From an uncultured Nitrospirales bacterium (lineage in GTDB: Bacteria; Hydrogenedentota; Hydrogenedentia; Hydrogenedentales; GCA-2746185): DNA of 14,064 bases. The stretch spans positions 3,672 through 17,735 of the forward strand of contig CAYUZD010000025.1 in NCBI GenBank assembly GCA_964449475.1, given 5' to 3'. A program made the position numbers and the translations under genes. Under the pieces are notes generated by a model, which made no database searches, was not told the DNA's origin, and worked only from the letters and a program-made list of their open reading frames with translations. Of this stretch, positions 1-11,208 are shown one piece after another (position 1 is the first letter of the stretch; the number at the start of each line of letters is the position of its first letter).

Positions 1-194
1 ACTCGGGCGCGATGCAACTATTGAACGACTCGCGCGTGACGCGCCCGTTCGGCGAAATGGCGCTCAAGGCCGCGTGGTGGTCCGCCACCGATGCGGGCCG
101 CGACTATATCGAGCGCACGGGACGCTCGCACCCGTCCGCCGACGTGCGCCGGTTGGCCGCCGACATCCTCGCGAGCTGGCCGCCGCCGGAGTAA
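1..194 (+). CDS. 3' end of a CDS that continues upstream of the window; the C-terminal fragment resembles a HEAT/PBS-lyase-like repeat (SADVRRLAADILA)
   Basis: The frame is open from nt 3 (no stop before ATG at 12), with stop TAA at 192-194. Codon usage is GC3-rich like the neighbours. The only functional clue is the HEAT-like motif DVRRLAADIL. Confidence 0.4.
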   Translation, partial: SGAMQLLNDSRVTRPFGEMALKAAWWSATDAGRDYIERTGRSHPSADVRRLAADILASWPPPE

Positions 195-223
195 CCCCGC
201 GCGAGTCCGGTAGAATCGCCGGT

Positions 224-1012
224 ATGACGCGCGCGGAACTCAAGCCTGAACTGGACGCGTTGCACGCGCGGCTCAACCGCCGCGAGTTCGTGTCGCCGGA
301 TCCGCTCGAGGTCGTCTACCGCTACGCGTCGGACGCCGACCGGGAAGTCGCGGGTCTCGTCGCGGCCTGTCTCGCGTACGGCCGGGTCGCGCAAATCCTG
401 CGCAATCTCGACACGGTGTTGGCCGCGCTGGGGCCGCACCCGGCGGACGCGCTGCGTCACGACGGCGGCCAATTCGCGCGGCGGCTCAACGGATTCCAGC
501 ACCGCTGGACCACGCGAGACGACATCGGCGCGCTCTTCGACGGCATCGGCCGCGCGCTGCGCACTCACGGATCGCTCGAAGCCTGCTTCCTGTCGCACCA
601 ACCCGCCGGCGCGGACTCGACGCTGCCCGGCCTTACCGGATTCGCGCGCGAGCTGCGCCTCGGACGTCCGCCGGATAGCCTCGTCTCCGCGCCGGAGAAG
701 GGCAGCGCGTGCAAACGCCTGCATCTGTATCTGCGATGGATGGCGCGGCGGGACGACGTCGATCCGGGTTGCTGGACCCGGCTCGATCCCGCGCTGCTTA
801 TCGTCCCGCTCGACACGCACATGCACCGCGCGGCGCGCGCGCTCCGGCTCACGCGGCGCAGGCAGCCCAACCTCGCCGCGGCGCTCGACGTGACCGCATT
901 CTTCCGCGCGATCAGCCCCGGCGACCCGCTCAAGTACGATTTCGCGCTCACGCGCCTCGGCATTCGCAGCGACGAGGACATGGGCGCATTCCTCCGCCGA
1001 ATCCGTTCGTGA
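224..1012 (+). CDS. TIGR02757 / DUF2400 family conserved hypothetical protein (262 aa)
   Basis: The ATG at 224 is the first start after the upstream gene's stop; the longer 74.. extension overlaps the upstream CDS out of frame. Hallmark motifs of this family are present: KRLHLYLRWMARRD..DPGCW, IVPLDTHMHR, DPLKYDFALTRLG. It is followed by a hairpin terminator. Confidence 0.75.
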   Translation: MTRAELKPELDALHARLNRREFVSPDPLEVVYRYASDADREVAGLVAACLAYGRVAQILRNLDTVLAALGPHPADALRHDGGQFARRLNGFQHRWTTRDDIGALFDGIGRALRTHGSLEACFLSHQPAGADSTLPGLTGFARELRLGRPPDSLVSAPEKGSACKRLHLYLRWMARRDDVDPGCWTRLDPALLIVPLDTHMHRAARALRLTRRRQPNLAAALDVTAFFRAISPGDPLKYDFALTRLGIRSDEDMGAFLRRIRS

Positions 1013-1022
1013 ACCAAGGCGC

Positions 1023-1052
1023 CACGCCTAAGCGGGGTTCAGCTTAGGCGTG
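1023..1052. terminator. Bidirectional stem-loop (11-bp stem cACGCCTAAGC / GCTTAGGCGTg, 8-nt loop GGGGTTCA) between convergent genes
   Basis: A perfect inverted repeat read directly from the sequence. It lies in the 68-nt gap between the DUF2400 stop (1012) and the ispE stop (1081). U-tracts on both sides are weak, which is typical of high-GC genomes. Confidence 0.5.
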
Positions 1053-1080
1053 TTGCCTACCTTCCGCGCGACCGTTGTGC

Positions 1081-1980
1081 CTAACCCACCCGCCGCACAC
1101 CATGCGGGATCGTGCGTACGACGGACGAAGCCACTTCCGTAAACCGCGCCGCGATCGCCTTCGCGTGCGCCTCGTCCTTGCACAGGCCGTACAACGTCGG
1201 TCCACTGCCGCTCATCGCCGCGCCCGCGCACCCCGCGTCGAGCAACCGCTGCTTCCATACCGCCAACTGCGGATATTCGGAGAACACCGGGATCTCCATC
1301 GCGTTGTGCAGTACATCGGGCAGCAGCCCGCGCGACAACGTCTCGAGCGTGTTGCGAAACGTCTTCGTTGTCCCGTCGATGCGCTCCTCGCGCGTCTTCT
1401 TCAGCATCACGTGGTTGTACACGCGCGCGGCGCTCACCTCCATCGGCGGATGCAACAACACCAGCCACGTCTCCCGCAGCGGTTCGAGCGGACGCAACAC
1501 CTCGCCCCGGCCCGTGGCCGACATCGTGCCGCCGGTTAGCACGAACGGGACATCCGATCCGAGTTCGACGCCGATCGCGCGGAGCGTCTCGACGCTCAGC
1601 CCCAGTCCCCACATCTCGTTCAGGCCCGTCAAGACCGCCGCCGCGTCCGCCGAGCCGCCGGCGAGCCCCGCCGCGATCGGAATCCGCTTCGCGAGACTGA
1701 TGTGTACACCGCGTCCAGGCGCGTACCGCTCACGCAGGATGCGCGCAGCGCGCAACGCAAGGTTGTCGGGGATCTCGAGCGCGGGATTCGTGCAGGACAA
1801 TGCCGGTTCGCCGTCGCGCGGCGTCAGCGTGACTTCGTCGGCGAGGTCAATCGACTGAAAGATCGTTTCAATGTCGTGGTAGCCGTCTGTCCGGCGGTCG
1901 ATCACCGACAGGTAGAAATTGATCTTCGCGTGGGCGTGGTACTGGAGTGGGGAGGCGGAAGAGGTGGGATGTCCGCTCAA
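1081..1980 (-). CDS. ispE: 4-(cytidine 5'-diphospho)-2-C-methyl-D-erythritol kinase (IspE, GHMP kinase family)
   Basis: N-terminal AKINFYL and the GHMP ATP-binding motif IPIAAGLAGGSADAAAVL are present, with IspE-like overall length. The start is ambiguous. A TTG at 1980 would give 299 aa and overlaps the upstream gene's TGA stop as ATTGA (translational coupling). The alternative is the GTG at 2028 (315 aa), which would overlap the upstream CDS by 52 nt. Confidence 0.85.
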   Translation of the reverse strand: MSGHPTSSASPLQYHAHAKINFYLSVIDRRTDGYHDIETIFQSIDLADEVTLTPRDGEPALSCTNPALEIPDNLALRAARILRERYAPGRGVHISLAKRIPIAAGLAGGSADAAAVLTGLNEMWGLGLSVETLRAIGVELGSDVPFVLTGGTMSATGRGEVLRPLEPLRETWLVLLHPPMEVSAARVYNHVMLKKTREERIDGTTKTFRNTLETLSRGLLPDVLHNAMEIPVFSEYPQLAVWKQRLLDAGCAGAAMSGSGPTLYGLCKDEAHAKAIAARFTEVASSVVRTIPHGVRRVG

Positions 1981-3590
1981 TCCCGGCCGCCCGCCCGCAT
2001 CTGACGCGGCGGTTCCTGCGCGCAGCACGCCATCCCGACCGCCTCGCGCACGTTCTTCTTCGGCGTGCCGACAATCTCGATCGGCCCGCCGAACCCGTGG
2101 ATCGCGTCTGCCAGCGGCCGCGACACGGCGCCGATGCGTTCGCTATCCACGCGCATCGGGCCGGCCGAAATGCCGTATGTCTGCATCACGGACATCGTCT
2201 CCGTCGCATTCTGCCATTGCGCGAGGTTGTCCGCGATCGTCAGCGTCGGCGACGGAATTACGGGGTATCCGCTCGCCGCGATCGTGAAGATCTCAAGCGC
2301 GTACAGGTCGGCCTGTTCGCGCGTCACGTTGAACTTCTGCAATACGTCGTCCGGAATCTTTGAATTCTCAACGACGAAGAACTGGTATCCCTGGTTCACC
2401 AGCTTGTCCACGCGTTCCGCGGCGAACCCGCGCGCATCTTCAATGCCCAGGTTCAGCCAGAATGTCCCGTCCGCCGCCTTCACCGTCAGTCGGCCCTCGG
2501 CGCCGTCGGCGCCGAGCGGGTCGAAACTAATCCCGGGAACCATCCCGCCCTGGATGAGGTCGCGCGCGACCTTGCCCATGTCCTTCGGGTAATCCGGCGC
2601 GCGGCCGTTCAGACTGCCGGGCGACTCCTGCCACCCCGACGGCACCAGCGCGTACTTCACGTAATTGTCTTTCCACGCCTCCGCCACGCGGAGCAGGTCC
2701 GCGGCCGGCGCGCCGTTCTGCACGGTCACCCAGCCCTTCGGCAGCGCGCCGGGGCTCGTCGTCTTCATGCCCGTCATCTCGGACCAGACGTGCGTCTGCA
2801 GGACTTGCGCGGCGTCGCTCTGGAACAGCGACATCCACACCGGGTCGCACCCGACCTTTGACTTCGGCTGGATCGTCAGCGACGGGGTGTACTCGCACCG
2901 GACCGATCCCACCCACGACTTGCCCGACGGGCGGAGGTCCACGTACGAATTCACCATCCCCGAGCGCAGCACGCCCACGCCGAGCGTCATCTTCGGCTGC
3001 CGCATCGACATCAACACCAGGCCCGCGCCGGCACCCGCGTTCATCATCGAGTAATTGCCTCGCCGCTGCGTCAGCGCCTGGGTCACCACAACCGAGTCGC
3101 CTAGTTCCGCGACCGATCCCGGGTCGAACACCGCGGGGCGGATTTCGCGAATCGCGATCGGCTGCGAACTCGGGTTCGTCAGAATGATATGGATCATCAG
3201 GAACGGGCGCGTCTTGAATCGCGCGACCGAGAAATCGACCATCAGCCCCTTGTGCGTCAGAAACAACGAACGGAATCGGGTGCCTTCGCCGAGCGGGCCG
3301 TCGAAGTCCTCGCGCTCGTCCTTCACCGCGCGCGACGAACTCAGCCGCTCGACCACGCCGTCCGCGTACTCGATCTCGCACTGCGCGTCCTTCACCAGCA
3401 CGCCGAGTTGCGAAACCTCGACCATCCATTCGCCGGTCTGAACGTCGAATTTGAACGTCGAATAGTCGCCCGTAAAGCTGTAGTGGTCCCGCAACGCCCA
3501 GGGTTTGTACTCCTCGCCAGCGGCCAAGACGGAGAACAAAAGGAGGCCTGCGGCGAGGCACAACCGACCCGCGCGCATGTACGACTGCAT
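1977..3590 (-). CDS. Secreted glycoside-hydrolase-like protein (537 aa): N-terminal signal peptide, beta-sandwich N-domain, then a GH27/GH36 (alpha-galactosidase/melibiase)-like TIM-barrel region
   Basis: The ATG at 3590 is preceded by GGAGGGGG 8 nt upstream. The signal peptide is MQSYMRAGRLCLAAGLLLFSVLAAGEE. The region ...GMVPGISFDPLGADG...WLNLGIEDARGFAAERVDKLVNQGYQFFVVEN resembles a GH27/36 catalytic barrel. The family assignment is tentative. Confidence 0.65.
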   Translation of the reverse strand: MQSYMRAGRLCLAAGLLLFSVLAAGEEYKPWALRDHYSFTGDYSTFKFDVQTGEWMVEVSQLGVLVKDAQCEIEYADGVVERLSSSRAVKDEREDFDGPLGEGTRFRSLFLTHKGLMVDFSVARFKTRPFLMIHIILTNPSSQPIAIREIRPAVFDPGSVAELGDSVVVTQALTQRRGNYSMMNAGAGAGLVLMSMRQPKMTLGVGVLRSGMVNSYVDLRPSGKSWVGSVRCEYTPSLTIQPKSKVGCDPVWMSLFQSDAAQVLQTHVWSEMTGMKTTSPGALPKGWVTVQNGAPAADLLRVAEAWKDNYVKYALVPSGWQESPGSLNGRAPDYPKDMGKVARDLIQGGMVPGISFDPLGADGAEGRLTVKAADGTFWLNLGIEDARGFAAERVDKLVNQGYQFFVVENSKIPDDVLQKFNVTREQADLYALEIFTIAASGYPVIPSPTLTIADNLAQWQNATETMSVMQTYGISAGPMRVDSERIGAVSRPLADAIHGFGGPIEIVGTPKKNVREAVGMACCAQEPPRQMRAGGRD

Positions 3591-3640
3591 ACTGCCCCCT
3601 CCGGCGCCAACCCCTCGCGCCCTGTTGTGTAAACCATTGA

Positions 3641-3646
3641 ATTATA
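3641..3646 (-). promoter_or_regulatory. Perfect TATAAT -10 hexamer on the minus strand, 51 nt upstream of the glycoside-hydrolase-like gene start
   Basis: Plus-strand ATTATA at 3641-3646 is TATAAT on the minus strand. It sits in the AT-rich 135-nt divergent intergenic region. No good -35 was found. Confidence 0.35.
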
Positions 3647-3663
3647 CCGGATTCCGGCGAAAG

Positions 3664-3692
3664 TTGTGTACTATTCGATGACCATTTATACC
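3664..3692 (+). promoter_or_regulatory. Candidate sigma70-like promoter for the GTPase operon (TTGTGT-N17-TATACC)
   Basis: The hexamers are read from the sequence in the AT-rich gap and would give a leader of about 23 nt to the ATG at 3726. The candidate promoter overlaps the alternative ATG at 3666, which supports start 3726. The consensus match is weak. Confidence 0.3.
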
Positions 3693-3725
3693 CACCAACC
3701 GCGGCGGCCTGCACCCGAATCCAGC

Positions 3726-5501
3726 ATGGAAAACCCTATCGGAGATGGACTCACCGCGTTCGAGGCCGCCCTGGGCCGCCTCGACGCCGCGCTGGCTCCC
3801 TACGCCGAACTCCACGGGGAAGTTTTCGCCGAGTCCCAGGCCTGGCGCGACCTGCTTACCTACAAACTCGTCCCGCACATGGCGGGTACCGGCTGCCTCG
3901 TCGCCGCGGTCACCGGCGGCACCAACACCGGCAAATCGACCGTGTTCAATCTGCTCGTGGGCCGCACCGCGAGTCCCATGGCCAGCACCGCCGCCGCCAC
4001 CTGCCACCCCGTGCTCGCCGCCAACGCCCGGCGCGCGGCCGAATCGCTCGACGCCAAGCTCGTGCCCGAATTCAAACCGCGCACGCTCGATGTCGCCGCG
4101 CACGCGACCGATCCCGCGCTGCCCGCCGAGGCGCTCTTCGTCGTACGCGACGATTCGCTGCCCGATCATCTCGTGCTGATGGACACGCCCGACGTCGATT
4201 CCATCATGCGGCAGAACTGGGAGGTCACCGCGCACCTCCGCGCGGCCGGCGACGTCATGATCGCCGTCATCACCGGCGAGAAGTACAAGGACGACCGCGT
4301 CGTGCAGTTTTTCCGCCAGGCCGCCGCGTCCGGGCGCGTGATCGTCCCCGTGATGAACAAGGCGAACCCGGCGAACGACTTCGCCGTCGCGCGCCGCCAG
4401 CTCGCCGATTTCTGCGCGGATGTCGGGACCGATTCACCGGTCTTCGTGATCCCGCACGATTTCAGCATCGGCGACAACCTGCAAACGCCCGTCCGCGCAC
4501 TCGACGGCGCGCTCGAACTGCGCGCGCATCTCGAATCGCTCGACGTCGCCGCGATCAAGTCCCGCGTCTACGAGGGCACCGTCGCCCGGTTCATCGCCGA
4601 CGCCGAATCGTTCCTCGGCCGGCTCGAGGCCGCCGCCGAACCCCTCCGCGAAGTGGACGACGCGCTTGCCGGACTCGTGGACGCCGCCGCCGAAACGTAC
4701 GACCCCGTGCCCGGCCGCGAGGTCGGCGGACTCTTTCATGCCTACGTCCAGTCCAAGCGCGGGCCCATTCGCCGCACCATCGGCGCGACCAGCGCCACCG
4801 TCGTGCGCGGTGCCGGCGCGCTCACCCGCGCCGTCCGCGGCGCCTTCGTCCGCCGCGCCACGCTCGAGGCGCCCGACACGCCCGCCGCAAACGCCGCCGA
4901 TGACGCGCTGCGTGCGTTGCACCGCGACGCGGTCGAACGCATCGCGCGGGACCTCGTCGCCGAGTGCGCCGATCGCGCGCGCACCTTCGGCCAGCCTGCC
5001 CGCGGCATCATCGGCGATCGCTTCGCCGAACTCGATGCGGAGGCGGCCTGTGCCGCCGTGTCCGCCGAGGCGTTGCACCCGGGTCCCCTCTCCGAAGCGT
5101 TTGAGCAGCATGCGCAGAAGACGCTCGACGCATGGTGGCAGGACCACAAGGGCCGCCGCCGCGCGCTCGAGGCGCTCGACGCCGTCCTCTCCGTGATGCC
5201 CGCCGCCATCGCCGCGCCGATCGCGCTGCACACCGGCGGGCTCGGCGCGGCGGAGGCCGCCGTGTTCCTCGGACCGTTCGCGGCGCAGTTCGTCGCGCGC
5301 GTGATGGAGTACCAGTTCGGCGACGCACTCTTCGATTTCCTGTCGCCGTGGAAGAAGGAGCAGCGGGCCCGCCTGCGCGGCGCGCTCGCGGCGCACGTCG
5401 CCGGCGCGGGGCTCGCGCCGCTCCATGCCGCCCTCGGCGCGATGCAGGGCGAACCCCTCGACACCATGCGGAGCGCGCTCGAATCATGCCGGAATCGCTG
5501 A
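3726..5501 (+). CDS. Dynamin-like / mitofusin-like large P-loop GTPase, soluble partner (591 aa), with non-canonical G3 and G4 motifs
   Basis: Walker A/G1 AAVTGGTNTGKST (GKS at about nt 3930-3938). G3-like hhhhDTPD (LVLMDTPDVDS, 4182-4193). G4-like NKAN (4356-4367). A long alpha-helical, Ala-rich C-terminal half follows. Start 3726 (MENPIG...) is preferred over 3666 because codons in 3666-3725 (ATT, TAT, CAA) are atypical for this genome and a promoter candidate overlaps that region. It is a paralog of the downstream gene. Confidence 0.8.
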   Translation: MENPIGDGLTAFEAALGRLDAALAPYAELHGEVFAESQAWRDLLTYKLVPHMAGTGCLVAAVTGGTNTGKSTVFNLLVGRTASPMASTAAATCHPVLAANARRAAESLDAKLVPEFKPRTLDVAAHATDPALPAEALFVVRDDSLPDHLVLMDTPDVDSIMRQNWEVTAHLRAAGDVMIAVITGEKYKDDRVVQFFRQAAASGRVIVPVMNKANPANDFAVARRQLADFCADVGTDSPVFVIPHDFSIGDNLQTPVRALDGALELRAHLESLDVAAIKSRVYEGTVARFIADAESFLGRLEAAAEPLREVDDALAGLVDAAAETYDPVPGREVGGLFHAYVQSKRGPIRRTIGATSATVVRGAGALTRAVRGAFVRRATLEAPDTPAANAADDALRALHRDAVERIARDLVAECADRARTFGQPARGIIGDRFAELDAEAACAAVSAEALHPGPLSEAFEQHAQKTLDAWWQDHKGRRRALEALDAVLSVMPAAIAAPIALHTGGLGAAEAAVFLGPFAAQFVARVMEYQFGDALFDFLSPWKKEQRARLRGALAAHVAGAGLAPLHAALGAMQGEPLDTMRSALESCRNR

Positions 5502-7138
5502 ACGAACTGTTGCACACGCTGGACGCGCTCGCGGCCTATGCCGGGCCGTGGGAGCCGCTCCGGCGCGAGGCGGACCTGCTCCGCGCGCGGCTCGACGAAC
5601 TCCGCGAGCGCGAGGTCCGGCTCGACGACCTGCTCGTCGTCGCGCTCGTCGGCGGGTCCGGTGTCGGCAAATCGACGCTGCTCAACGCGCTCGCGGGCGA
5701 CGAACTCGCGAAGACGTCCGAGTACCGCCCGTGCACCGCGATCCCCACGATCTATCACCCGCCCGGCGCGCGGTTGCCCTTCGGCGAAGGCTGGGAACGC
5801 AAGTCCGGTTCCGCGCTCGAAAACCTCGTCATCGTGGACACGCCCGACTCCGACACCATCGTCCGCGAGCATCGCGCGCTCGTGCAGCAGGCGTTGCGCG
5901 AGTGCGATCTCGTCGTAATGTGCGCGGACTCGGAAAAATATCTCGACGAAGCGACGTGGTCCCTCCTGCGCCCGCTCAAGGACGAGCGCGCGCTCGTCTG
6001 CGTTGAGACCAAGGCCTCAGCCGCGCCGAGCATCCGAGAGGACTGGTTGCGGCGGCTCGGCGAGGCCGGCATCCGCGTCTCCGGTTACTTCCGCGTGAAC
6101 AGCATCCGCACCTTCGACCGGAAAGTCGCGGGCCGCGCGCCCGGCCCGGACGAGTACGACTTCGCCGCGCTCGAGGCGTTCCTCGCGAAGGAACTGACCG
6201 CCGACCGCATCCGCCGCATCAAACGCTCGAACACCGCCGGGCTCCTCGCAAAGACCATCGCCACGCTCGAAGAACGCGTCGCCGCGCGCACACCGGGCCT
6301 CGACGAGGCGGACGCCGCACTGCGCGCCGCGGAGGCCGCGCTCGCGCAAACCGCGCACGACATCGTGCGCCGGCGCCTGTTTACCGAACCGCACCTCTGG
6401 AACTACGCGCTCGGCCGCGAGATCGGCCTGCGCTCGAAGGGGTTCGTCGGCGCGCTTTATCGTCTGGTCGAATCGGTCCGCACACTGCCCGCGCGCCTCT
6501 CCACGTGGTCGCTCTGGCCCGTGCGGTCCGCCGCCGGCCACCGCGCCGCGCGCATTCTCGGCGACGCCGGTCTCTTCGAGGAACACCTCGACCTTGGCTC
6601 CGACGAACTTCGCCGCGCGTTCGACTCGCAGGCCAGCCACGTCCGTCTCGCGATGGCGCAGGCGGGGTTCGCGCCGATCGCGCGCGACGGCGAGTTTGAG
6701 GCGTTCACCGCGAAACTCAGCGTGGCCGTCGAGACCGTCCTGCGCGGCCCCGCACGCGATCGCGTCGTCGCGCGGGCCCGCGCGCTCACAAGCTGGCCGC
6801 TCGCCGTCCTGCTCGACGCCGCGCCGGTCGGATTCTTCGGCTACACCGCGTTCCTGCTCGTCACGGATTACTTCCAGGCGGATGTCTGGACCGGCCCGGA
6901 ACTGATCCACGCGACCACCGTCCTCGGGATCATGCTCGTCGTCGAAATCTTCGGGCTGTCCGCCGCCGCGCGGTTCCTCGCGTGGAACGCCCGCCGCGCC
7001 GCCGCGCGCGATCTCCGGCTCGCACTCGCGCCCGGCACGCACGCATTCGCCGCCGAACAGCAAACGGTCGCCGAGGCACGGGCGCTGGTGGCTCAGTTGG
7101 ATCGCGCGTCCGAATCAATGCGCGAGAACGCGCGGTAA
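5486..7138 (+). CDS. Dynamin-like / mitofusin-like large P-loop GTPase, membrane-anchored partner (550 aa), with a C-terminal transmembrane hairpin
   Basis: The ATG at 5486 is in frame inside the long 5132..7138 ORF and overlaps the upstream stop (5499-5501) by 16 nt. G1 VALVGGSGVGKST. G3-like VIVDTPDSDT (5837-5848). Conserved EKYLDE. G4-like TKAS (6008-6019). Two adjacent hydrophobic helices near the C-terminus: LAVLLDAAPVGFFGYTAFLLVTDYF and TTVLGIMLVVEIFGLSAAARFLAW. The Arg-rich N-terminal extension 5132-5485 is rejected as an out-of-frame overlap with the upstream gene. Confidence 0.8.
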   Translation: MPESLNELLHTLDALAAYAGPWEPLRREADLLRARLDELREREVRLDDLLVVALVGGSGVGKSTLLNALAGDELAKTSEYRPCTAIPTIYHPPGARLPFGEGWERKSGSALENLVIVDTPDSDTIVREHRALVQQALRECDLVVMCADSEKYLDEATWSLLRPLKDERALVCVETKASAAPSIREDWLRRLGEAGIRVSGYFRVNSIRTFDRKVAGRAPGPDEYDFAALEAFLAKELTADRIRRIKRSNTAGLLAKTIATLEERVAARTPGLDEADAALRAAEAALAQTAHDIVRRRLFTEPHLWNYALGREIGLRSKGFVGALYRLVESVRTLPARLSTWSLWPVRSAAGHRAARILGDAGLFEEHLDLGSDELRRAFDSQASHVRLAMAQAGFAPIARDGEFEAFTAKLSVAVETVLRGPARDRVVARARALTSWPLAVLLDAAPVGFFGYTAFLLVTDYFQADVWTGPELIHATTVLGIMLVVEIFGLSAAARFLAWNARRAAARDLRLALAPGTHAFAAEQQTVAEARALVAQLDRASESMRENAR

Positions 7139-7142
7139 CGCG

Positions 7143-9191
7143 TTACTGCTGCGGCGTCGCGGGCGCTTCCTCGGCGGGAGCGGTTTCGACCGGCGCGGCC
7201 TCGACAGGCGCAGATTCCACCGGCGCGCCCTCGGTCGCTTCCGGAATGATCACCGGCGTATCAACCGCCTGCTCCGCGTCCTCGGCCTGTTGCTCCGCGG
7301 CCGGTGCGGGCGCTGCGGGGAGCGGCGACGCCGGAGTGGTTGCCGCGGCGTCCTTCAGCCCGAGAATCTCGAACACCAGGTCGTAATCCTTCTGGATCTG
7401 CGCGGCGTCGTTCGCCTCCGCGACAAGGTATTGCATGTAGTCCATCCGCCGCTGGAGCTGACGCGTCGCGAGCAGTTGCTGCTTGATCTCCGCCTTCTCC
7501 GTCTCGAACTGCGCGTCCCACGTCTCGCCTTCGGGCACGGTCTTCTCGACAAGTTCGATGAACTGCGGCACGCGCAGCATGTCCACATACGGTCCGGTGA
7601 AGCTGCCCACGTCCTCGCCGATCAGCCGGCCGAACACCTGCCGCGTGTCGATGAACAGCCCCTGGCTGAACAGCATGTCGTCCATGCCGAACGGCGTCGT
7701 TTCTTTCACCGTAAGCGGCAATTCGGGGAACTTCGCCTGCACGTCCGCGACGCTCGTCGCTTCCTCGGAAATCCGCTTCACGTAGTTCGACACGCGTTCC
7801 TGGTACTCAGGCGTCGCCTTGTGGTCGCGCTCTGCCGCCGTCACCACGTCCGCGCGCGCCTCGTCGAACGTCCGCTGCACCGGCGGATGCAATTCGGCCA
7901 CCTGTGCGATGAACAGGTTTTCGCCGCCCTCGATCACCTGCGAGAGCTGGTCCACCGCCAACTCCGACACGTCCCGCCGGAACTGGAACGAATCCGCCTC
8001 TGAAATCCCCTCGATGGTCTCCGTCCGCGCGGAGAACCGCCCGGTCCGCTTCACCTCGAGACCCGCGTCCGCCGCCGCGACGTGCAGCCCGGCGTTGCCC
8101 GCGGCCGCCGCCGCCCGCAGCGCGTCCGCCTGCGCCTTGCGCGCGGCCTTCTCCGTCTCATCCAGCACGGGCCGCAGCAGAATCTGCCGCGCATGGGCCT
8201 CGCGATTGCCCTGCGCGTCCGTGCGGACCTCTTCCACCTTGTAAATGTGCAGCCCGAGCACGCTGCGCACCGGCCCGCGCACTTCGCCTGGCTGCATCTC
8301 GAACAGTACCTTCTCGTGCTCGCGCAACCCCGCCGACTCGTTGATCCAGCCCAGGTCGCCGCCGCTGTCCGCGTCGAACGACTCCGAATGCGCCTTCGCC
8401 AGTTCCCCGAAGTCCTCGCCCGCGTTCGCCTTCGCGATGATCTCGTCCACCAGCGGCGGCACCGGCGGCAGAATCGACACCGCGATGTATTCCGCCACGC
8501 GCTCGTCCGGCGTCATGAACTGGTCGAGATTCGCATCGTAGAACGCGCGCAGCTCTTCGTCGGTCAGCGGAACAGTCGGTTCGACGCCGATCGCCTTGAC
8601 CTTCAGCTTCGTGTTCCGATCGTTGAAGAAGTCGCGGATTTCCGCCTGCGTCACGCGCGCCGACGCGCCGATCAGATACAAATACGTGTCGTTGTTGATC
8701 TGGTCCGCCATGCTGCTGAAAAACGCGTCCCAGTTGAATTTCGACGTCGTCGCGTTCTGCACCCACTGGTTGTACAGGCTCGCGTCGAACTCGCCCTGCT
8801 CGTTCTGGAAATACGGGTCTTCCTTCAGCCGCTCGTGCAGGAAATCGTCGTCCGGCCGCACCGGCTGGTCCTTCGTCTGCTCCTTCACCAGCGCCTGGTT
8901 CACCAGGCTGTCCAGGATCGCGTCCACGGTCCCGTCGCTCACCAGGTCCTGCGCCGTCGCCGGCTGGCCGTACCGTTGCCGCTCGTCCTGCGCCTGCAGG
9001 AACCGCTGGTAGAACTCCTCCGCCGTTACCGGCGTCGAGCCCGCCTGCGCCACCGTCACTCCGGTCCCCGGCGCCGAACCGAACGTGAATTGCGCCGCGC
9101 CGGGGATGAAGAACACCATCGGCAGACCAATGAACAGGAAAATGAGAAGTCCGCCGAGACGCTTGTGGCGGTTCACGCGATCGAAAAGCAC
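7143..9191 (-). CDS. ppiD: Membrane-anchored periplasmic chaperone / peptidyl-prolyl cis-trans isomerase, PpiD-like (SurA-type with parvulin domain), with a Pro/Ala/Glu-rich C-terminal extension
   Basis: The GTG start at 9191 has AGGAG 8 nt upstream. There is an N-terminal TM helix (RLGGLLIFLFIGLPMVFFIP) and a parvulin signature (DFGELAKAHSESFDADSGGDLGWI). The 682-aa length fits PpiD. The C-terminal (APVEx)n repeats are encoded by 15-nt tandem units at 7150-7230. Confidence 0.75.
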   Translation of the reverse strand: MLFDRVNRHKRLGGLLIFLFIGLPMVFFIPGAAQFTFGSAPGTGVTVAQAGSTPVTAEEFYQRFLQAQDERQRYGQPATAQDLVSDGTVDAILDSLVNQALVKEQTKDQPVRPDDDFLHERLKEDPYFQNEQGEFDASLYNQWVQNATTSKFNWDAFFSSMADQINNDTYLYLIGASARVTQAEIRDFFNDRNTKLKVKAIGVEPTVPLTDEELRAFYDANLDQFMTPDERVAEYIAVSILPPVPPLVDEIIAKANAGEDFGELAKAHSESFDADSGGDLGWINESAGLREHEKVLFEMQPGEVRGPVRSVLGLHIYKVEEVRTDAQGNREAHARQILLRPVLDETEKAARKAQADALRAAAAAGNAGLHVAAADAGLEVKRTGRFSARTETIEGISEADSFQFRRDVSELAVDQLSQVIEGGENLFIAQVAELHPPVQRTFDEARADVVTAAERDHKATPEYQERVSNYVKRISEEATSVADVQAKFPELPLTVKETTPFGMDDMLFSQGLFIDTRQVFGRLIGEDVGSFTGPYVDMLRVPQFIELVEKTVPEGETWDAQFETEKAEIKQQLLATRQLQRRMDYMQYLVAEANDAAQIQKDYDLVFEILGLKDAAATTPASPLPAAPAPAAEQQAEDAEQAVDTPVIIPEATEGAPVESAPVEAAPVETAPAEEAPATPQQ

Positions 9192-9333: not shown

Positions 9334-9362
9334 TTGATCCGCCGCCAAACACGCCGTATAAT
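9334..9362 (+). promoter_or_regulatory. Near-consensus sigma70 promoter for tRNA-Ala (TTGATC-N17-TATAAT)
   Basis: TTGATC is at 9334-9339 and a perfect TATAAT at 9357-9362, with an exact 17-nt spacer. The predicted TSS is about 9369, giving a leader of about 25 nt before the mature tRNA 5' end at 9395. Confidence 0.6.
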
Positions 9363-9394: not shown

Positions 9395-9470
9395 GGGGGT
9401 ATAGCTCAGTTGGGAGAGCGCCTCGCTGGCAGCGAGGAGGCCAGGGGTTCGACTCCCCTTACCTCCACCA
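9395..9470 (+). tRNA. tRNA-Ala, anticodon GGC, 76 nt with genomically encoded CCA
   Basis: Manually folded. The acceptor stem GGGGGTA/TACCTCC includes the G3:U70 wobble pair, which is the alanine identity element. D-arm GCTC-AGTTGGGA-GAGC. Anticodon stem CCTCG/CGAGG with loop CTGGCAG (anticodon GGC). Variable loop AGGCC. T-arm AGGGG-TTCGACT-CCCCT. Discriminator A plus CCA. Confidence 0.9.
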
Positions 9471-9489
9471 TTTCGATTCCAGGGCGTGG

Positions 9490-9519
9490 CAGGCTTAAGC
9501 GAAGTCCAGCTTAAGCCTG
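9490..9519. terminator. Bidirectional stem-loop (11-bp stem CAGGCTTAAGC / GCTTAAGCCTG, 8-nt loop GAAGTCCA), downstream of tRNA-Ala and of the convergent flotillin gene
   Basis: A perfect inverted repeat read from the sequence. It is followed on the + strand by TGTTGTGCTTC. It lies in the 73-nt gap between the tRNA 3' end (9470) and the flotillin stop (9544). Confidence 0.55.
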
Positions 9520-9543
9520 TTGTGCTTCAGAGCAAAGCCTCCA

Positions 9544-11208
9544 TCACGCCGCAGGCGCAACGTTTCCGTCGCCGCTCGCCGTCGACTTCGTATCGTCCAC
9601 CATCCGGATGATCGATTCGGGGAACTCGACGCCGCCCACGTCCTTCATCACCTGCATCATCGGCGGCAGGGTGTTCGCGAGGTTGTTCAGGAAGCCCGCG
9701 GCCGATCCCTTGCCATTCTCGCCGCCGTTCTCCCACACGATGACCTTGTCGAACTTGATGTTCGAGATCGCCTGCGCCGACGTGTGCGCCAGCGTGTCGA
9801 GGTGCTCCAGCATCAACAGCCGGAACGCGGAATTCGCGTCGCCGCACGCCGCCACGATCGCCTTCAACCCGTCGGCCTTCTTCGCCAGAATCTCGTATTG
9901 GCCCTTCGCTTCCGCCTCGAGCTTGGCGAAAATCGCCGCCGCCTCGCCCTCGGCCTCGAGCCGCGTCTGCTGCGCCTTTGCCTCGGCCTCCACAATCGTC
10001 CGCGCCTTCTCGGCCTTGGCCTTCGCCTCGAGTTCCGCGCGGAACTCCGCTTCGACCAGTTCCGCCTCGGCCAGCGCCGCCTTTGCCAGTGCACGGTTCT
10101 TCGCCTCGAGCACGCTCGCCTTCGCGATCTCTTCCTTCGTCGCGCCCACCTGAAACGACTCGGCTTCCTTCACGCGCAGCGTCGCATTCGACACCGCGAT
10201 CGCCGCCTTGGACTCGTTCTCGCCCTCGATCGCGCGCGCGTTCGCCTCCGCGACGCGAATGCGCATCTGCTTCTCCGAATCCTTGACCTTGATGTCCTGG
10301 TCGAATGCGGCGGCCGCCTCGCCCACTTTCGCGGTCGCGTCCGCGTTCGCGACGGACACGCGCTTCTCGCGTTCCGCCTCCTTGACCTGCACCTCGCGCT
10401 GGAACGCCGCCTGCTGCTCGCCGACGACCTGTTCCTTCTCGAGTTCTGCCACGCGCACGGCCTGTTCGCGCTTCGCCTCGCGCGTGCCGATCTCCTGCAA
10501 CTTCGTGTTGTTCGCGACCTGCACCAGCTTGTCGCGGTCCGCCTCGGCCACGCGGATTTCGCCCTTCTTGAGCTCGTCCGCCACGTCGCCGCGCGCGCGC
10601 TGGATCGCCTCGGACGCCGCCTTCTTGCCGATGGCCTCGATGTATCCCGAGTCGTCCGTGATGTCCGTGATGTTGACGTTGATCAGCACCATGCCGATCT
10701 TCCGCAGTTCCGGCTCGAGGTTCGTCTGGATGTTGTGCAGGAACGCGTCGCGGTCGCGGTTGATGTCCTCGATCCGCATCGACGCGATCACCTGGCGCAA
10801 CTGCCCGAATATGATGTCTTCCGCCTGCTTCTTGATCGCGCCCGTGTCCAGCCCCAGGAGCCGGATCGCCGCGTTGTTCATCATGTCCGGCTCGGTCCCG
10901 ATCGCCACCGTGAACACGCTCGGCACGTTGACGCGGATGTTTTCCATGGACAGCGCGTCCTTGAGCGGGATCTCGATCTGGATCGGTTCGAGGCTGAGGT
11001 ACTCGTAGTCCTGGATCAGCGGAATCACGAACGCCGCGCCGCCGTGGATGCACCGCGATGACGTGCCCGACCCGACCTTGCCGTAGATCACGAGGATCCG
11101 GTTGCTCGGGCAGCGTTTGTACCGCCGGCTCGCCAGCACGAAGAACGAGAACAGGAACAGCGCCGCGACGGTGACCGTCACGACAATCCAGATGGTGGGT
11201 TCGCCCAT
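9544..11208 (-). CDS. floT: Flotillin family protein (SPFH/band-7 domain, YqiK/FloT-like), 554 aa
   Basis: N-terminal membrane anchor (IWIVVTVTVAALFLFSFFVLA). SPFH domain. A long Glu/Ala/Lys-rich coiled-coil (EA-repeat) region. A flotillin C-terminal region. ATG at 11208, 27 nt downstream of the nfeD stop, consistent with an operon. Confidence 0.85.
   Translation of the reverse strand: MGEPTIWIVVTVTVAALFLFSFFVLASRRYKRCPSNRILVIYGKVGSGTSSRCIHGGAAFVIPLIQDYEYLSLEPIQIEIPLKDALSMENIRVNVPSVFTVAIGTEPDMMNNAAIRLLGLDTGAIKKQAEDIIFGQLRQVIASMRIEDINRDRDAFLHNIQTNLEPELRKIGMVLINVNITDITDDSGYIEAIGKKAASEAIQRARGDVADELKKGEIRVAEADRDKLVQVANNTKLQEIGTREAKREQAVRVAELEKEQVVGEQQAAFQREVQVKEAEREKRVSVANADATAKVGEAAAAFDQDIKVKDSEKQMRIRVAEANARAIEGENESKAAIAVSNATLRVKEAESFQVGATKEEIAKASVLEAKNRALAKAALAEAELVEAEFRAELEAKAKAEKARTIVEAEAKAQQTRLEAEGEAAAIFAKLEAEAKGQYEILAKKADGLKAIVAACGDANSAFRLLMLEHLDTLAHTSAQAISNIKFDKVIVWENGGENGKGSAAGFLNNLANTLPPMMQVMKDVGGVEFPESIIRMVDDTKSTASGDGNVAPAA

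What the first reader, a model, noticed from the sequence alone, without database searches (positions are those of the whole stretch)
1023..1052. Two related palindromic hairpin elements (here and at 9490-9519) with a compensatory base-pair change: a small REP-like repeat family used as bidirectional terminators
The hairpins at 1023-1052 (cACGCCTAAGC GGGGTTCA GCTTAGGCGTg) and 9490-9519 (CAGGCTTAAGC GAAGTCCA GCTTAAGCCTG) both have 11-bp stems and 8-nt loops. They are about 80% identical over the core G C[C/T]TAAGC G[GG/AA]GT[T/C]CA GCTTA[G/A]G C. The one stem position that differs, C-G versus T-A, is changed on both arms, a covariation that preserves pairing. Similarity extends upstream (CCAAGGCGCC versus CCAGGGCGTG) and downstream (GTTG in both). 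Of the three convergent gene junctions in the window, these are the two with an intergenic gap: DUF2400 against ispE, and tRNA-Ala against flotillin. Each is 10-25 nt from the stop codons. This points to a dispersed, structured intergenic repeat such as a REP/BIME-like element or a conserved terminator family, rather than two independent terminators. Such elements can also serve as binding sites (for example REP-associated transposase, gyrase or IHF sites) or as mRNA-stability determinants.
Basis: seen in the sequence. Interest (0 to 1): 0.55.

Follow-up and report, generated by a model that had tools for sequence, protein, structure and literature searches.

The report
REP hairpin repeats with RAYT transposase
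The two similar hairpins are real copies of a dispersed REP repeat family (short palindromes spread by a dedicated "RAYT" transposase), a well-known kind of bacterial element found here in an undescribed lineage, and there is no evidence that they are purpose-built terminators.

Summary
Both hairpins exist exactly as described: perfect 11-bp stems and 8-nt loops at 1023-1052 and 9490-9519. They are homologous, not convergent. A scan of 185,579 species-representative genomes found the core in essentially one genome, a close relative of the window's organism (MAG CAYPNI01, labelled Nitrospirales; flotillin 93% identical). That MAG holds about 50 copies in the 207 kb retrieved. The unit is 35 nt: GTGG-CAGGCYTAAGC-GNNGTYCA-GCTTARGCCTG-T, a GT[A/G]G head at the foot of a palindrome. 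Copies occur as singlets, tandem arrays and tail-to-tail inverted doublets. One array and one doublet flank a gene that passes NCBIfam's "REP-associated tyrosine transposase" equivalog cut-off. Copy 9486-9520 is a near-consensus "A-type" unit. Copy 1019-1053 belongs to a sister "B-type" (CCACGCC stem), whose doublets flank a 53%-identical RAYT in a related soil contig. Both window copies are missing from the orthologous junctions of the nearest relatives, so they are lineage-specific insertions. The "bidirectional terminator" reading is not: there is no U-tract, relatives do without the hairpins, and copies also sit at co-directional and divergent junctions. This is a new member of a known kind.

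The parts
9486..9520 (+). REP copy 2, A-type, near-consensus. Head GTGG 9486-9489; stem arms 9490-9500 and 9509-9519; loop GAAGTCCA 9501-9508; trailing T 9520. Lies 15 nt after tRNA-Ala and 23 nt before the flotillin stop codon.
   Evidence: sequence; 3 mismatches to the 35-nt consensus, all in the loop; 58.4 bits, E 1e-17, with a model built without window sequences; the RNA fold extends to a 19-bp stem at 9482-9527 through G-U pairs, -28.5 kcal/mol, z -3.1.
1019..1053 (+). REP copy 1, B-type (CCACGCC stem). The head position reads GCGC at 1019-1022, against the B-type consensus GTGC. Stem arms 1023-1033 and 1042-1052; loop GGGGTTCA 1034-1041; trailing T 1053. Lies 6 nt after the DUF2400 stop codon and 27 nt before the ispE stop codon.
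   Evidence: sequence; 46.8 bits, E 7.5e-14; stem arms identical to the B-type REP next to the RAYT of L044 (GTGCCACGCCTAAGC...GCTTAGGCGTG); the fold extends to 1017-1058, -33.9 kcal/mol for the 68-nt spacer, z -3.3.
9395..9470 (+). tRNA-Ala(GGC), the upstream neighbour of copy 2. Context only, not part of the element. In relative L046 it lies 8 nt from the flotillin stop codon with no REP.
1013..1080 (.). 68-nt convergent spacer between the DUF2400 and ispE stop codons that holds copy 1. In syntenic relatives L038-L040 the two genes are called as overlapping, with no spacer and no REP.
9471..9543 (.). 73-nt spacer between the tRNA-Ala 3' end and the flotillin stop codon that holds copy 2. The same junction is 8 nt long in L046.

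Best explanation
The two hairpins are singlet members of a REP (repetitive extragenic palindrome) family of the GT[A/G]G-tagged type. Such elements are short non-autonomous DNA units that a cognate HUH/Y1 'REP-associated tyrosine transposase' (RAYT, TnpA-REP) recognises as single-stranded hairpins with a 5' tetranucleotide at the foot, then cleaves and copies. Shown here: (i) a 35-nt unit, GTGG + 11-bp palindrome + 8-nt loop, is present about 50 times in the sampled part of a close relative's genome; (ii) it occurs as singlets, tandem arrays and tail-to-tail inverted doublets (REPIN/BIME-like); (iii) a RAYT gene in that genome is flanked by these units (a REPtron), and a 53%-identical RAYT in a related soil contig is flanked on both sides by doublets of the sister B-type; (iv) both window copies are absent from the orthologous junctions of the nearest relatives, so they arrived by insertion, or were lost elsewhere, recently. 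Copy 2 is an intact A-type unit. Copy 1 is a B-type unit whose head has changed (GCGC instead of GTGC), so it is probably an immobile relic that keeps a perfect stem. Inferred, not shown: that the RAYT actually mobilises them, and that the window's own genome carries the RAYT and many further copies. As a secondary effect, stable hairpins this close to gene ends are expected to influence the 3' ends of the DUF2400, ispE, flotillin and tRNA-Ala transcripts, as an exonuclease barrier and possibly by weak attenuation. That would be a by-product of where such elements are tolerated, not the reason the family exists.
For:: the core pattern occurs in 34 stretches of 185,579 genomes, 32 of them in one MAG (CAYPNI01); all MAG copies share the unsearched flanks GTGGCAG and CTGT, with head variants GTAG, GTCG and GCGG; 10 copies are identical over 35 nt; 98% of cells are paired; pair 20-39 is U-A in 27 copies, C-G in 15 and broken in 1; 50 hits of at least 43.8 bits in 207 kb; tandem arrays (L005, L011, L015) and tail-to-tail doublets (L001, L004, L022, L028) with a second subtype that has a 7-nt loop. 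L005:5254-5811(-) is a 185-aa protein scoring 99.4 bits on NCBIfam NF047646 REP_Tyr_transpos (cut-off 80) and 31 bits on Pfam Y1_Tnp, with motifs NHAH, WQ and YIHNNP. It is flanked by a four-copy array (4989-5248) and a doublet (5823-5913); its only PDB match is 4ER8, TnpA-REP; the RAYT of L044 is flanked on both sides by a 96-nt B-type doublet; an independent model scores the window copies at 58.4 and 46.8 bits, strand-specifically; empty orthologous sites. Literature: a canonical REP is a 5' GT[AG]G at the foot of a hairpin, and REPtrons are described (PMC6006769). GTAG degenerates to GTRG or GTGG in some families; stems are 5-13 bp; HH/TT dimers, clusters and a position mostly downstream of ORFs are typical (PMC3733652). 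The tetranucleotide is required for RAYT binding and cleavage (PMC3479197).
Against: The window's own genome could not be retrieved: its contig is not returned by the look-ups. Its copy number and its RAYT are therefore inferred from a relative with 93% flotillin identity. Only two copies are seen in 14 kb. Copy 1 lacks the GT[AG]G head. No transposition chemistry, target site or duplication could be defined; the empty-site comparison (8 nt against 73 nt) does not give clean boundaries. The family was found in no other genome and no JGI metagenome, so all family-level evidence rests on one MAG plus one soil contig.
Confidence: 0.85

Rival explanations
1. The hairpins are a family of bidirectional, U-tract-less intrinsic terminators selected to stop convergent transcription.
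For: Both window copies lie between convergent transcription units, 6-28 nt from the gene ends. The folds are stable on both strands: -33.9 and -29.2 kcal/mol, and -28.5 and -24.4 kcal/mol, for the two spacers. No other terminator-like site lies in either spacer. In the MAG only 3 of 33 classified clusters lie between divergent genes. REPs are reported to lie predominantly downstream of coding regions (PMC3733652).
Against: There is no run of T after the stem on either strand, and the consensus scan does not report the sites. The same junctions in relatives have no hairpin: 8 nt in L046 and overlapping genes in L038-L040. In the MAG 21 clusters are co-directional, 9 convergent and 3 divergent (crude gene calls). 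Orientation relative to transcription is unbiased, 6 sense against 12 antisense. Exact conservation of the unpaired head and loop, tandem arrays, inverted doublets and the RAYT linkage are all unexplained by termination.
Confidence: 0.1
2. The two window hairpins resemble each other by chance convergence of GC-rich palindromes and are unrelated to each other.
For: Unrelated palindromes containing GCTTAAGC do occur: the same pattern hit Lachnospiraceae, Lewinella and three metagenome contigs.
Against: Those chance hits lack the head and tail and score only 16-22 bits over model positions 18-41. The window copies score 58.4 and 46.8 bits over all 55 positions with a model built without them. Both match defined subfamilies that flank RAYT genes.
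Confidence: 0.01
3. They are units of another repeat class: a CRISPR-like array, integron attC sites, or a conventional MITE with terminal inverted repeats mobilised by a DDE transposase.
For: Some MAG loci have regularly spaced tandem copies with a period of 50-68 nt. The arms GCCTAAGC and GCTTAGGC superficially recall the attC core sites RYYYAAC and GTTRRRY (from my own knowledge).
Against: The linkers between tandem copies are themselves repeated and only 15-33 nt long (L005, L011). Copies are mostly singlets dispersed over more than 30 contigs. The unit is 35 nt, too short for attC. The protein linked to the copies is a Y1/HUH RAYT, not Cas, IntI or a DDE enzyme. I did not search systematically for cas or intI genes.
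Confidence: 0.03

Closest known systems
GTAG-tagged REP families and their RAYTs (TnpA-REP): E. coli REP/BIME with RayT (PDB 4ER8), Pseudomonas REPINs, and the GTAG-1 to GTAG-24 families of Di Nocera et al. 2013 (PMC3733652)
   Same: A 35-nt unit with an unpaired GT[A/G]G at the 5' foot of a palindrome. Extragenic and mostly at gene 3' ends. Occurs as singlets, clusters and inverted doublets. Subfamilies differ by complementary stem changes and loop length, like Y/Z REPs. A single-copy RAYT flanked by its own REPs (a REPtron). Family restricted to a narrow lineage.
   Different: The head is GTGG (A-type) or GTGC (B-type) rather than GTAG; GTGG as the majority form is reported only for Opitutus terrae GTAG-20 (PMC3733652). 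The stem is long and perfect (11-12 bp) with an 8-nt loop. The host carries a Nitrospirales label, a phylum not listed among REP hosts in that survey. The RAYT is at most 53% identical to any other protein in the 5.8-billion-cluster collection. Doublets are tail-to-tail with heads outward.
TnpA-Y1 subclass 2.4 (or 2.6) of Quentin et al. 2018 (PMC6006769)
   Same: The RAYT motifs NH[IFV]H-like (NHAH), WQ and YIxNNP (YIHNNP), and a length of 185 aa against about 194, match the table entries for these subclasses. Canonical long REPs flank the gene.
   Different: Subclass assignment was not tested phylogenetically here. No REP insertion inside the RAYT gene, a hallmark noted for subclass 2.4, was seen.
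Rho-independent (intrinsic) terminators
   Same: A stable GC-containing hairpin shortly after stop codons and after a tRNA gene.
   Different: No U-tract on either strand. Sequence conservation of head and loop. Multicopy with a transposase. Dispensable at the same junctions in relatives.

Membership tests
REP (GT[AG]G-tagged repetitive extragenic palindrome) | Short (about 20-40 nt) palindromic unit able to form a stem-loop | tested here: met
   35-nt unit with a perfect 11-bp stem and 8-nt loop in both window copies. 98% of cells are paired over 43 copies.
REP (GT[AG]G-tagged repetitive extragenic palindrome) | Conserved unpaired GT[AG]G tetranucleotide at the 5' foot of the hairpin | tested here: met
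   Copy 2 has GTGG at 9486-9489. MAG copies have GTGG in more than 90%, with GTAG in L019 and L034. Not met by copy 1, which reads GCGC at 1019-1022 against the B-type consensus GTGC in L044. Copy 1 is therefore filed as a degenerate member.
REP (GT[AG]G-tagged repetitive extragenic palindrome) | Many dispersed copies per genome, in extragenic space | tested here: inconclusive
   Met in the close relative CAYPNI01: 36 exact-pattern matches on more than 30 contigs and 50 model hits of at least 43.8 bits in 207 kb. 33 of 38 clusters are intergenic by crude gene calls. In the window's own genome only 2 copies in 14 kb can be seen, because the rest of that genome was not retrievable.
REP (GT[AG]G-tagged repetitive extragenic palindrome) | Occurrence as singlets, clusters and inverted doublets (BIME/REPIN), with subtypes differing in stem or loop | tested here: met
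   tandem arrays in L005, L011 and L015; tail-to-tail doublets in L001, L004, L022, L028 and L005; partners with 8-nt and 7-nt loops. The window copies themselves are singlets.
REP-RAYT system (REPtron) | A cognate RAYT (HUH + Tyr, IS200/IS605-related) flanked by REPs of the same family | tested here: met
   L005:5254-5811(-) scores 99.4 bits on NF047646 (cut-off 80) and is flanked by A-type REPs. The L044 RAYT P0122 is flanked on both sides by B-type doublets. Not testable for the window's own genome; no RAYT lies within the 14-kb window.
REP-RAYT system (REPtron) | Mobility: presence/absence polymorphism at orthologous sites | tested here: met
   The tRNA-Ala/flotillin junction is 73 nt with a REP in the window, and 8 nt without one in L046 (flotillin 91% identical). 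The junction is rearranged and REP-free in the MAG locus L045 (93%). The DUF2400/ispE junction is REP-free in L038-L040, and so are the 72 nt after the ispE stop in L045. Exact insertion boundaries were not resolved.
REP-RAYT system (REPtron) | RAYT binds the single-stranded hairpin plus head and cleaves or joins DNA | not testable with these tools
   Known for E. coli TnpA-REP (PMC3479197). It needs biochemistry with the L005 or L044 proteins.
Intrinsic terminator | GC-rich stem-loop followed directly by a U-rich tract | tested here: not met
   After the stems the + strand reads TTGCCTACC and TTGTGCTTC, and the - strand reads GCGCCTTGG and CCACGCCCT. Neither site is reported by the terminator scan.

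The most novel reading that the evidence does not exclude
Two sister REP subfamilies, A (GTGG-CAGGC...) and B (GTGC-CACGC...), differ by a head base and by compensatory stem pairs. Each is tied to its own RAYT (53% identical to the other) in closely related uncultured lineages, and relics of B survive in the A-dominated genomes. This would be a natural record of RAYT and REP co-evolving, with a specificity switch at the guide tetranucleotide and stem, in a phylum where REP-RAYT systems have not been described. A further possibility is that such units have been co-opted as the only 3'-end hairpins of a tRNA and of several mRNAs in a U-tract-poor, high-GC genome.
Probability: 0.3. Interest if true: 0.45.

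Novelty: new member of a known kind. Interest (0 to 1): 0.3.

Why it matters
It resolves the finding into a well-understood class, REP elements with their domesticated HUH transposase, and shows that the "compensatory change" reflects subfamily structure. Beyond that, it adds a REP-RAYT system from an uncultured, Nitrospirales-labelled soil lineage. The system has a GTGG/GTGC head, an unusually long perfect stem and a RAYT with no close homologue. It also supplies a ready A/B pair for testing how RAYTs read the guide tetranucleotide and stem. For annotation, these 35-nt units explain otherwise puzzling conserved hairpins and contig breaks in MAGs of this lineage.

Tried and rejected
(1) Retrieving the window's own contig. 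Exact look-ups of four window proteins and of the 100%-identical P0001 found nothing, so copy number in the source genome could not be measured.

(2) Rfam. Only the tRNA matches; no known RNA family covers the hairpins.

(3) Metagenome scan with the core pattern. It gave three hits, all unrelated palindromes, so no environmental distribution was obtained.

(4) Whether the window is from the MAG CAYPNI01 itself. The tetranucleotide correlation is 0.96 and the RAYT is unique, which suggested so. However, the MAG has its own orthologous locus with 93% flotillin identity and a different gene order. I rejected this: it is a close relative, not the same genome.

(5) The second RAYT-like ORF, L027:2338-2607, as the B-type partner. 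It is only 26-28% identical to both RAYTs and is truncated, so it is unrelated to this family.

(6) CRISPR, attC and MITE readings, rejected on architecture and on the linked protein (see the rival explanations).

(7) Orientation bias of REPs relative to transcription, as a sign of RNA-level function. The count is 6 sense against 12 antisense at co-directional junctions (crude gene calls), which is not significant.

(8) Names for the nearest DUF2400 homologues, to place the window taxonomically. No names were held. The best named hits are only 55-58% identical, from Hydrogenedentes.

Full report
**Observation**

The window has CACGCCTAAGC-GGGGTTCA-GCTTAGGCGTG at 1023-1052 and CAGGCTTAAGC-GAAGTCCA-GCTTAAGCCTG at 9490-9519. 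Both are perfect 11-bp palindromes around 8-nt loops.

- DUF2400, 74-1012(+)
- a GHMP kinase (ispE-like), 1081-2028(-)
- tRNA-Ala(GGC), 9395-9470(+)
- a flotillin/Band_7 gene, 9544-11208(-)

Over the whole stem two positions differ between the copies (3 and 6), and both are compensated. Neither hairpin is followed by a run of T on either strand, and the consensus terminator scan does not report them. Rfam finds only the tRNA.

**Is it a family?**

One scan of 185,579 species-representative genomes with GCYTAAGCNNNGTNCAGCTTARGC returned 34 stretches. Of these, 32 come from a single MAG, CAYPNI01, labelled 'uncultured Nitrospirales bacterium', with about 64% GC.

All MAG matches share bases that were not in the pattern: GTGGCAG on the 5' side and CTGT on the 3' side. 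Window copy 2 has exactly these. The two other genomes hit, and the three hits from the metagenome scan, lack these flanks and are chance palindromes. They score 16-22 bits over the palindrome only.

The unit is therefore 35 nt: GTGG-CAGGCYTAAGC-GNNGTYCA-GCTTARGCCTG-T.
- Ten MAG copies are identical over all 35 nt.
- In a 43-copy alignment 98% of stem cells pair. The Y/R position is U-A in 27 copies, C-G in 15 and broken in one.
- A covariance model built from the 41 MAG copies alone scores the window copies at 58.4 and 46.8 bits on the + strand, against 22.8 and 15.2 bits on the - strand. Nothing else in the window exceeds 7 bits.

The two window hairpins are therefore oriented members of this family, and they are the only two in the window.

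**Architecture in the relative**

The model finds 50 hits of at least 43.8 bits in the 207 kb of MAG sequence held. They occur in three arrangements:
- singlets
- tandem arrays: four copies with a period of about 68 nt in L005, 66 nt in L011, 50-54 nt in L015
- tail-to-tail inverted doublets with heads outward: L001 3169/3221, L004 2124/2176, L022 885/937, L028 5288/5339. These usually pair an 8-nt-loop unit with a 7-nt-loop unit.

This is the REP/BIME/REPIN pattern described in the literature: subfamilies with complementary stem changes, HH/TT dimers, and clusters (PMC3733652). The head varies as GTGG, GTAG, GTCG or GCGG. [quoted passage not shown]

**The transposase**

A phmmer search with E. 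coli RayT (taken from NC_000913) against all six-frame ORFs of the loci gave two hits. The first, L005:5254-5811(-), encodes 185 aa.
- It scores 99.4 bits on NCBIfam NF047646 'REP-associated tyrosine transposase' (equivalog, cut-off 80) and 31 bits on Pfam Y1_Tnp.
- It carries NHAH (HUH), WQ and YIHNNP motifs, as listed for TnpA-REP subclasses 2.4 and 2.6 in PMC6006769.
- Its only PDB match is 4ER8, TnpA-REP.
- It is flanked by the four-copy REP array on one side and a REP doublet on the other, which makes a REPtron.
- In the 5.8-billion-cluster collection its nearest homologue is 53% identical.

That homologue, P0122, lies on a farmland-soil contig (L044). It is flanked on both sides by a 96-nt tail-to-tail doublet of a sister REP type: GGGTGCCACGACTAAGC-GGGGTTCA-GCTTAGTCGTGT ... 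GCACGCCTAAGC-AAACCCC-GCTTAGGCGTGGCACCC.

Window copy 1 (GCGCCACGCCTAAGC-GGGGTTCA-GCTTAGGCGTGT) has exactly this 'B-type' stem and differs from the B-type head by one base (GCGC against GTGC). Decayed B-type fragments also occur in the MAG. The stem-position-3 'covariation' between the two window copies is therefore the diagnostic difference between two REP subfamilies. The position-6 covariation is a polymorphism within the A-type.

**Relationship of the window to the MAG, and empty sites**

The window's own contig is not returned by exact look-ups. A flotillin 93% identical to the window's is encoded on CAYPNI010000073.1 (L045), in a rearranged neighbourhood. The MAG is therefore a close relative, not the source. 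The tetranucleotide signatures correlate at 0.96.

The orthologous junctions compare as follows:
- In L046 (flotillin 91% identical) the flotillin stop codon is 8 nt from the tRNA-Ala(GGC) 3' end. In the window the gap is 73 nt and contains the REP.
- In L045 three genes separate flotillin from the tRNA. No REP is found in the locus, nor in the 72 nt after the ispE stop.
- In the syntenic, more distant L038-L040 (same gene order from DUF2400 to PpiD) the DUF2400 and ispE calls overlap, and there is no REP in 51 kb.
- L035 (DUF2400 81% identical) has none in 17 kb.

Both window copies are therefore lineage-specific insertions, or were lost in every relative sampled. The junctions function without them elsewhere.

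**Function**

With a crude GC3-based gene caller, the 38 MAG REP clusters classify as follows:
- 21 at co-directional junctions
- 9 at convergent junctions
- 3 at divergent junctions
- 4 inside long ORF calls. Three of these are start-codon over-calls; one, in L027, is mid-ORF and in frame.
- 1 unclassified

Orientation relative to transcription at co-directional junctions is 6 sense against 12 antisense. The bias toward gene 3' ends is the known REP pattern (PMC3733652) and does not single out convergent junctions.

The hairpins are stable as RNA on both strands, and more so on the + strand because of G-U pairs. They plausibly act as 3' exonuclease barriers or weak attenuators.

From my own knowledge, E. 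coli REPs stabilise upstream mRNA, and REPs within about 15 nt of a stop codon can depress expression of the upstream gene (Liang, Rudd and Deutscher 2015). I could not retrieve that paper here. Copy 1, 6-10 nt after the DUF2400 stop codon, would be a candidate.

A dedicated bidirectional-terminator role is not supported, for four reasons:
- There is no U-tract.
- The hairpins are dispensable in relatives.
- The unpaired head and loop are conserved exactly.
- The units are linked to a RAYT.

**Verdict**

The element is a new member of a known kind. No paper in the searchable library links RAYTs or REPs to Nitrospir* beyond a figure legend. The survey of REP hosts lists Proteobacteria, Cyanobacteria, Chloroflexi and the PVC superphylum for GTAG repeats (PMC3733652). 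Interest is modest. The most useful by-product is the A/B REP pair with co-diverged RAYTs.

Noticed in passing
L027:1024-1058 (-), inside ORF L027:582-1694 (-): One A-type REP lies in frame in the middle of a 370-aa ORF and is translated as ...GVAGLSEVQLKP.... It sits between an N-terminal region and a C-terminal cytochrome c domain (Pfam hit at residues 271-328). This is a possible intragenic REP, a phenomenon reported for other REP families (PMC3733652).
   Followed up: partly
L007:1400-1445 and 1520-1565; also L016 near 6555, L019 near 2530, L034 near 7105, L029 near 4195; variant in L010 near 1255: A second repeat, ...CCTGTCATTGCGAGGAGCG(G)GGTCTGTGACGAAGCAATCTC..., recurs next to REP copies in the MAG. 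In L007 and L010 it forms about 110-nt composite tandem units with the REP. It is not present in the window.
   Followed up: no
L027:2338-2607 (-): A second, truncated RAYT-like ORF of 89 aa with HVH and YVANNP motifs. It scores 76 bits on NF047646, just under the cut-off of 80. It is only 26-28% identical to the REP-flanked RAYTs and lacks the N-terminal part.
   Followed up: partly
window 9334-9362: A strong sigma-70-like promoter match (TTGATC-17-TATAAT, 10 of 12) lies 33 nt upstream of tRNA-Ala. This suggests the tRNA is its own transcription unit, running into REP copy 2.
   Followed up: no
window 74-9191; L038, L039, L040: A conserved gene block, DUF2400 > < ispE < 540-aa unknown | two adjacent dynamin-like GTPases > > | < PpiD/SurA-like, is syntenic in relatives with only 64-68% DUF2400 identity. 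The 537-aa protein at 1977-3590(-) has no Pfam match. The two GTPase ORFs overlap as longest ORFs (3666-5501 and 5132-7138).
   Followed up: no
L045:6778-8372 compared with window 9471-9543 and L046:5364-5371: In the MAG three genes (DUF1801, AHSA1, DUF1801) lie between flotillin and tRNA-Ala(GGC). They are absent from the window and from L046. The GTPase/ispE block is also placed differently, which indicates local rearrangement next to the tRNA among close relatives.
   Followed up: partly
L010:1383-1400: A run of N follows directly after a duplicated 111-nt REP-containing unit. These repeats seem to break or scaffold the MAG assembly, and L011 ends inside a REP array.
   Followed up: no
window 74-1012: The longest DUF2400 ORF (312 aa, GTG start) is probably over-extended. 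The identical database protein P0001 is 262 aa, covering 84% of the query.
   Followed up: no
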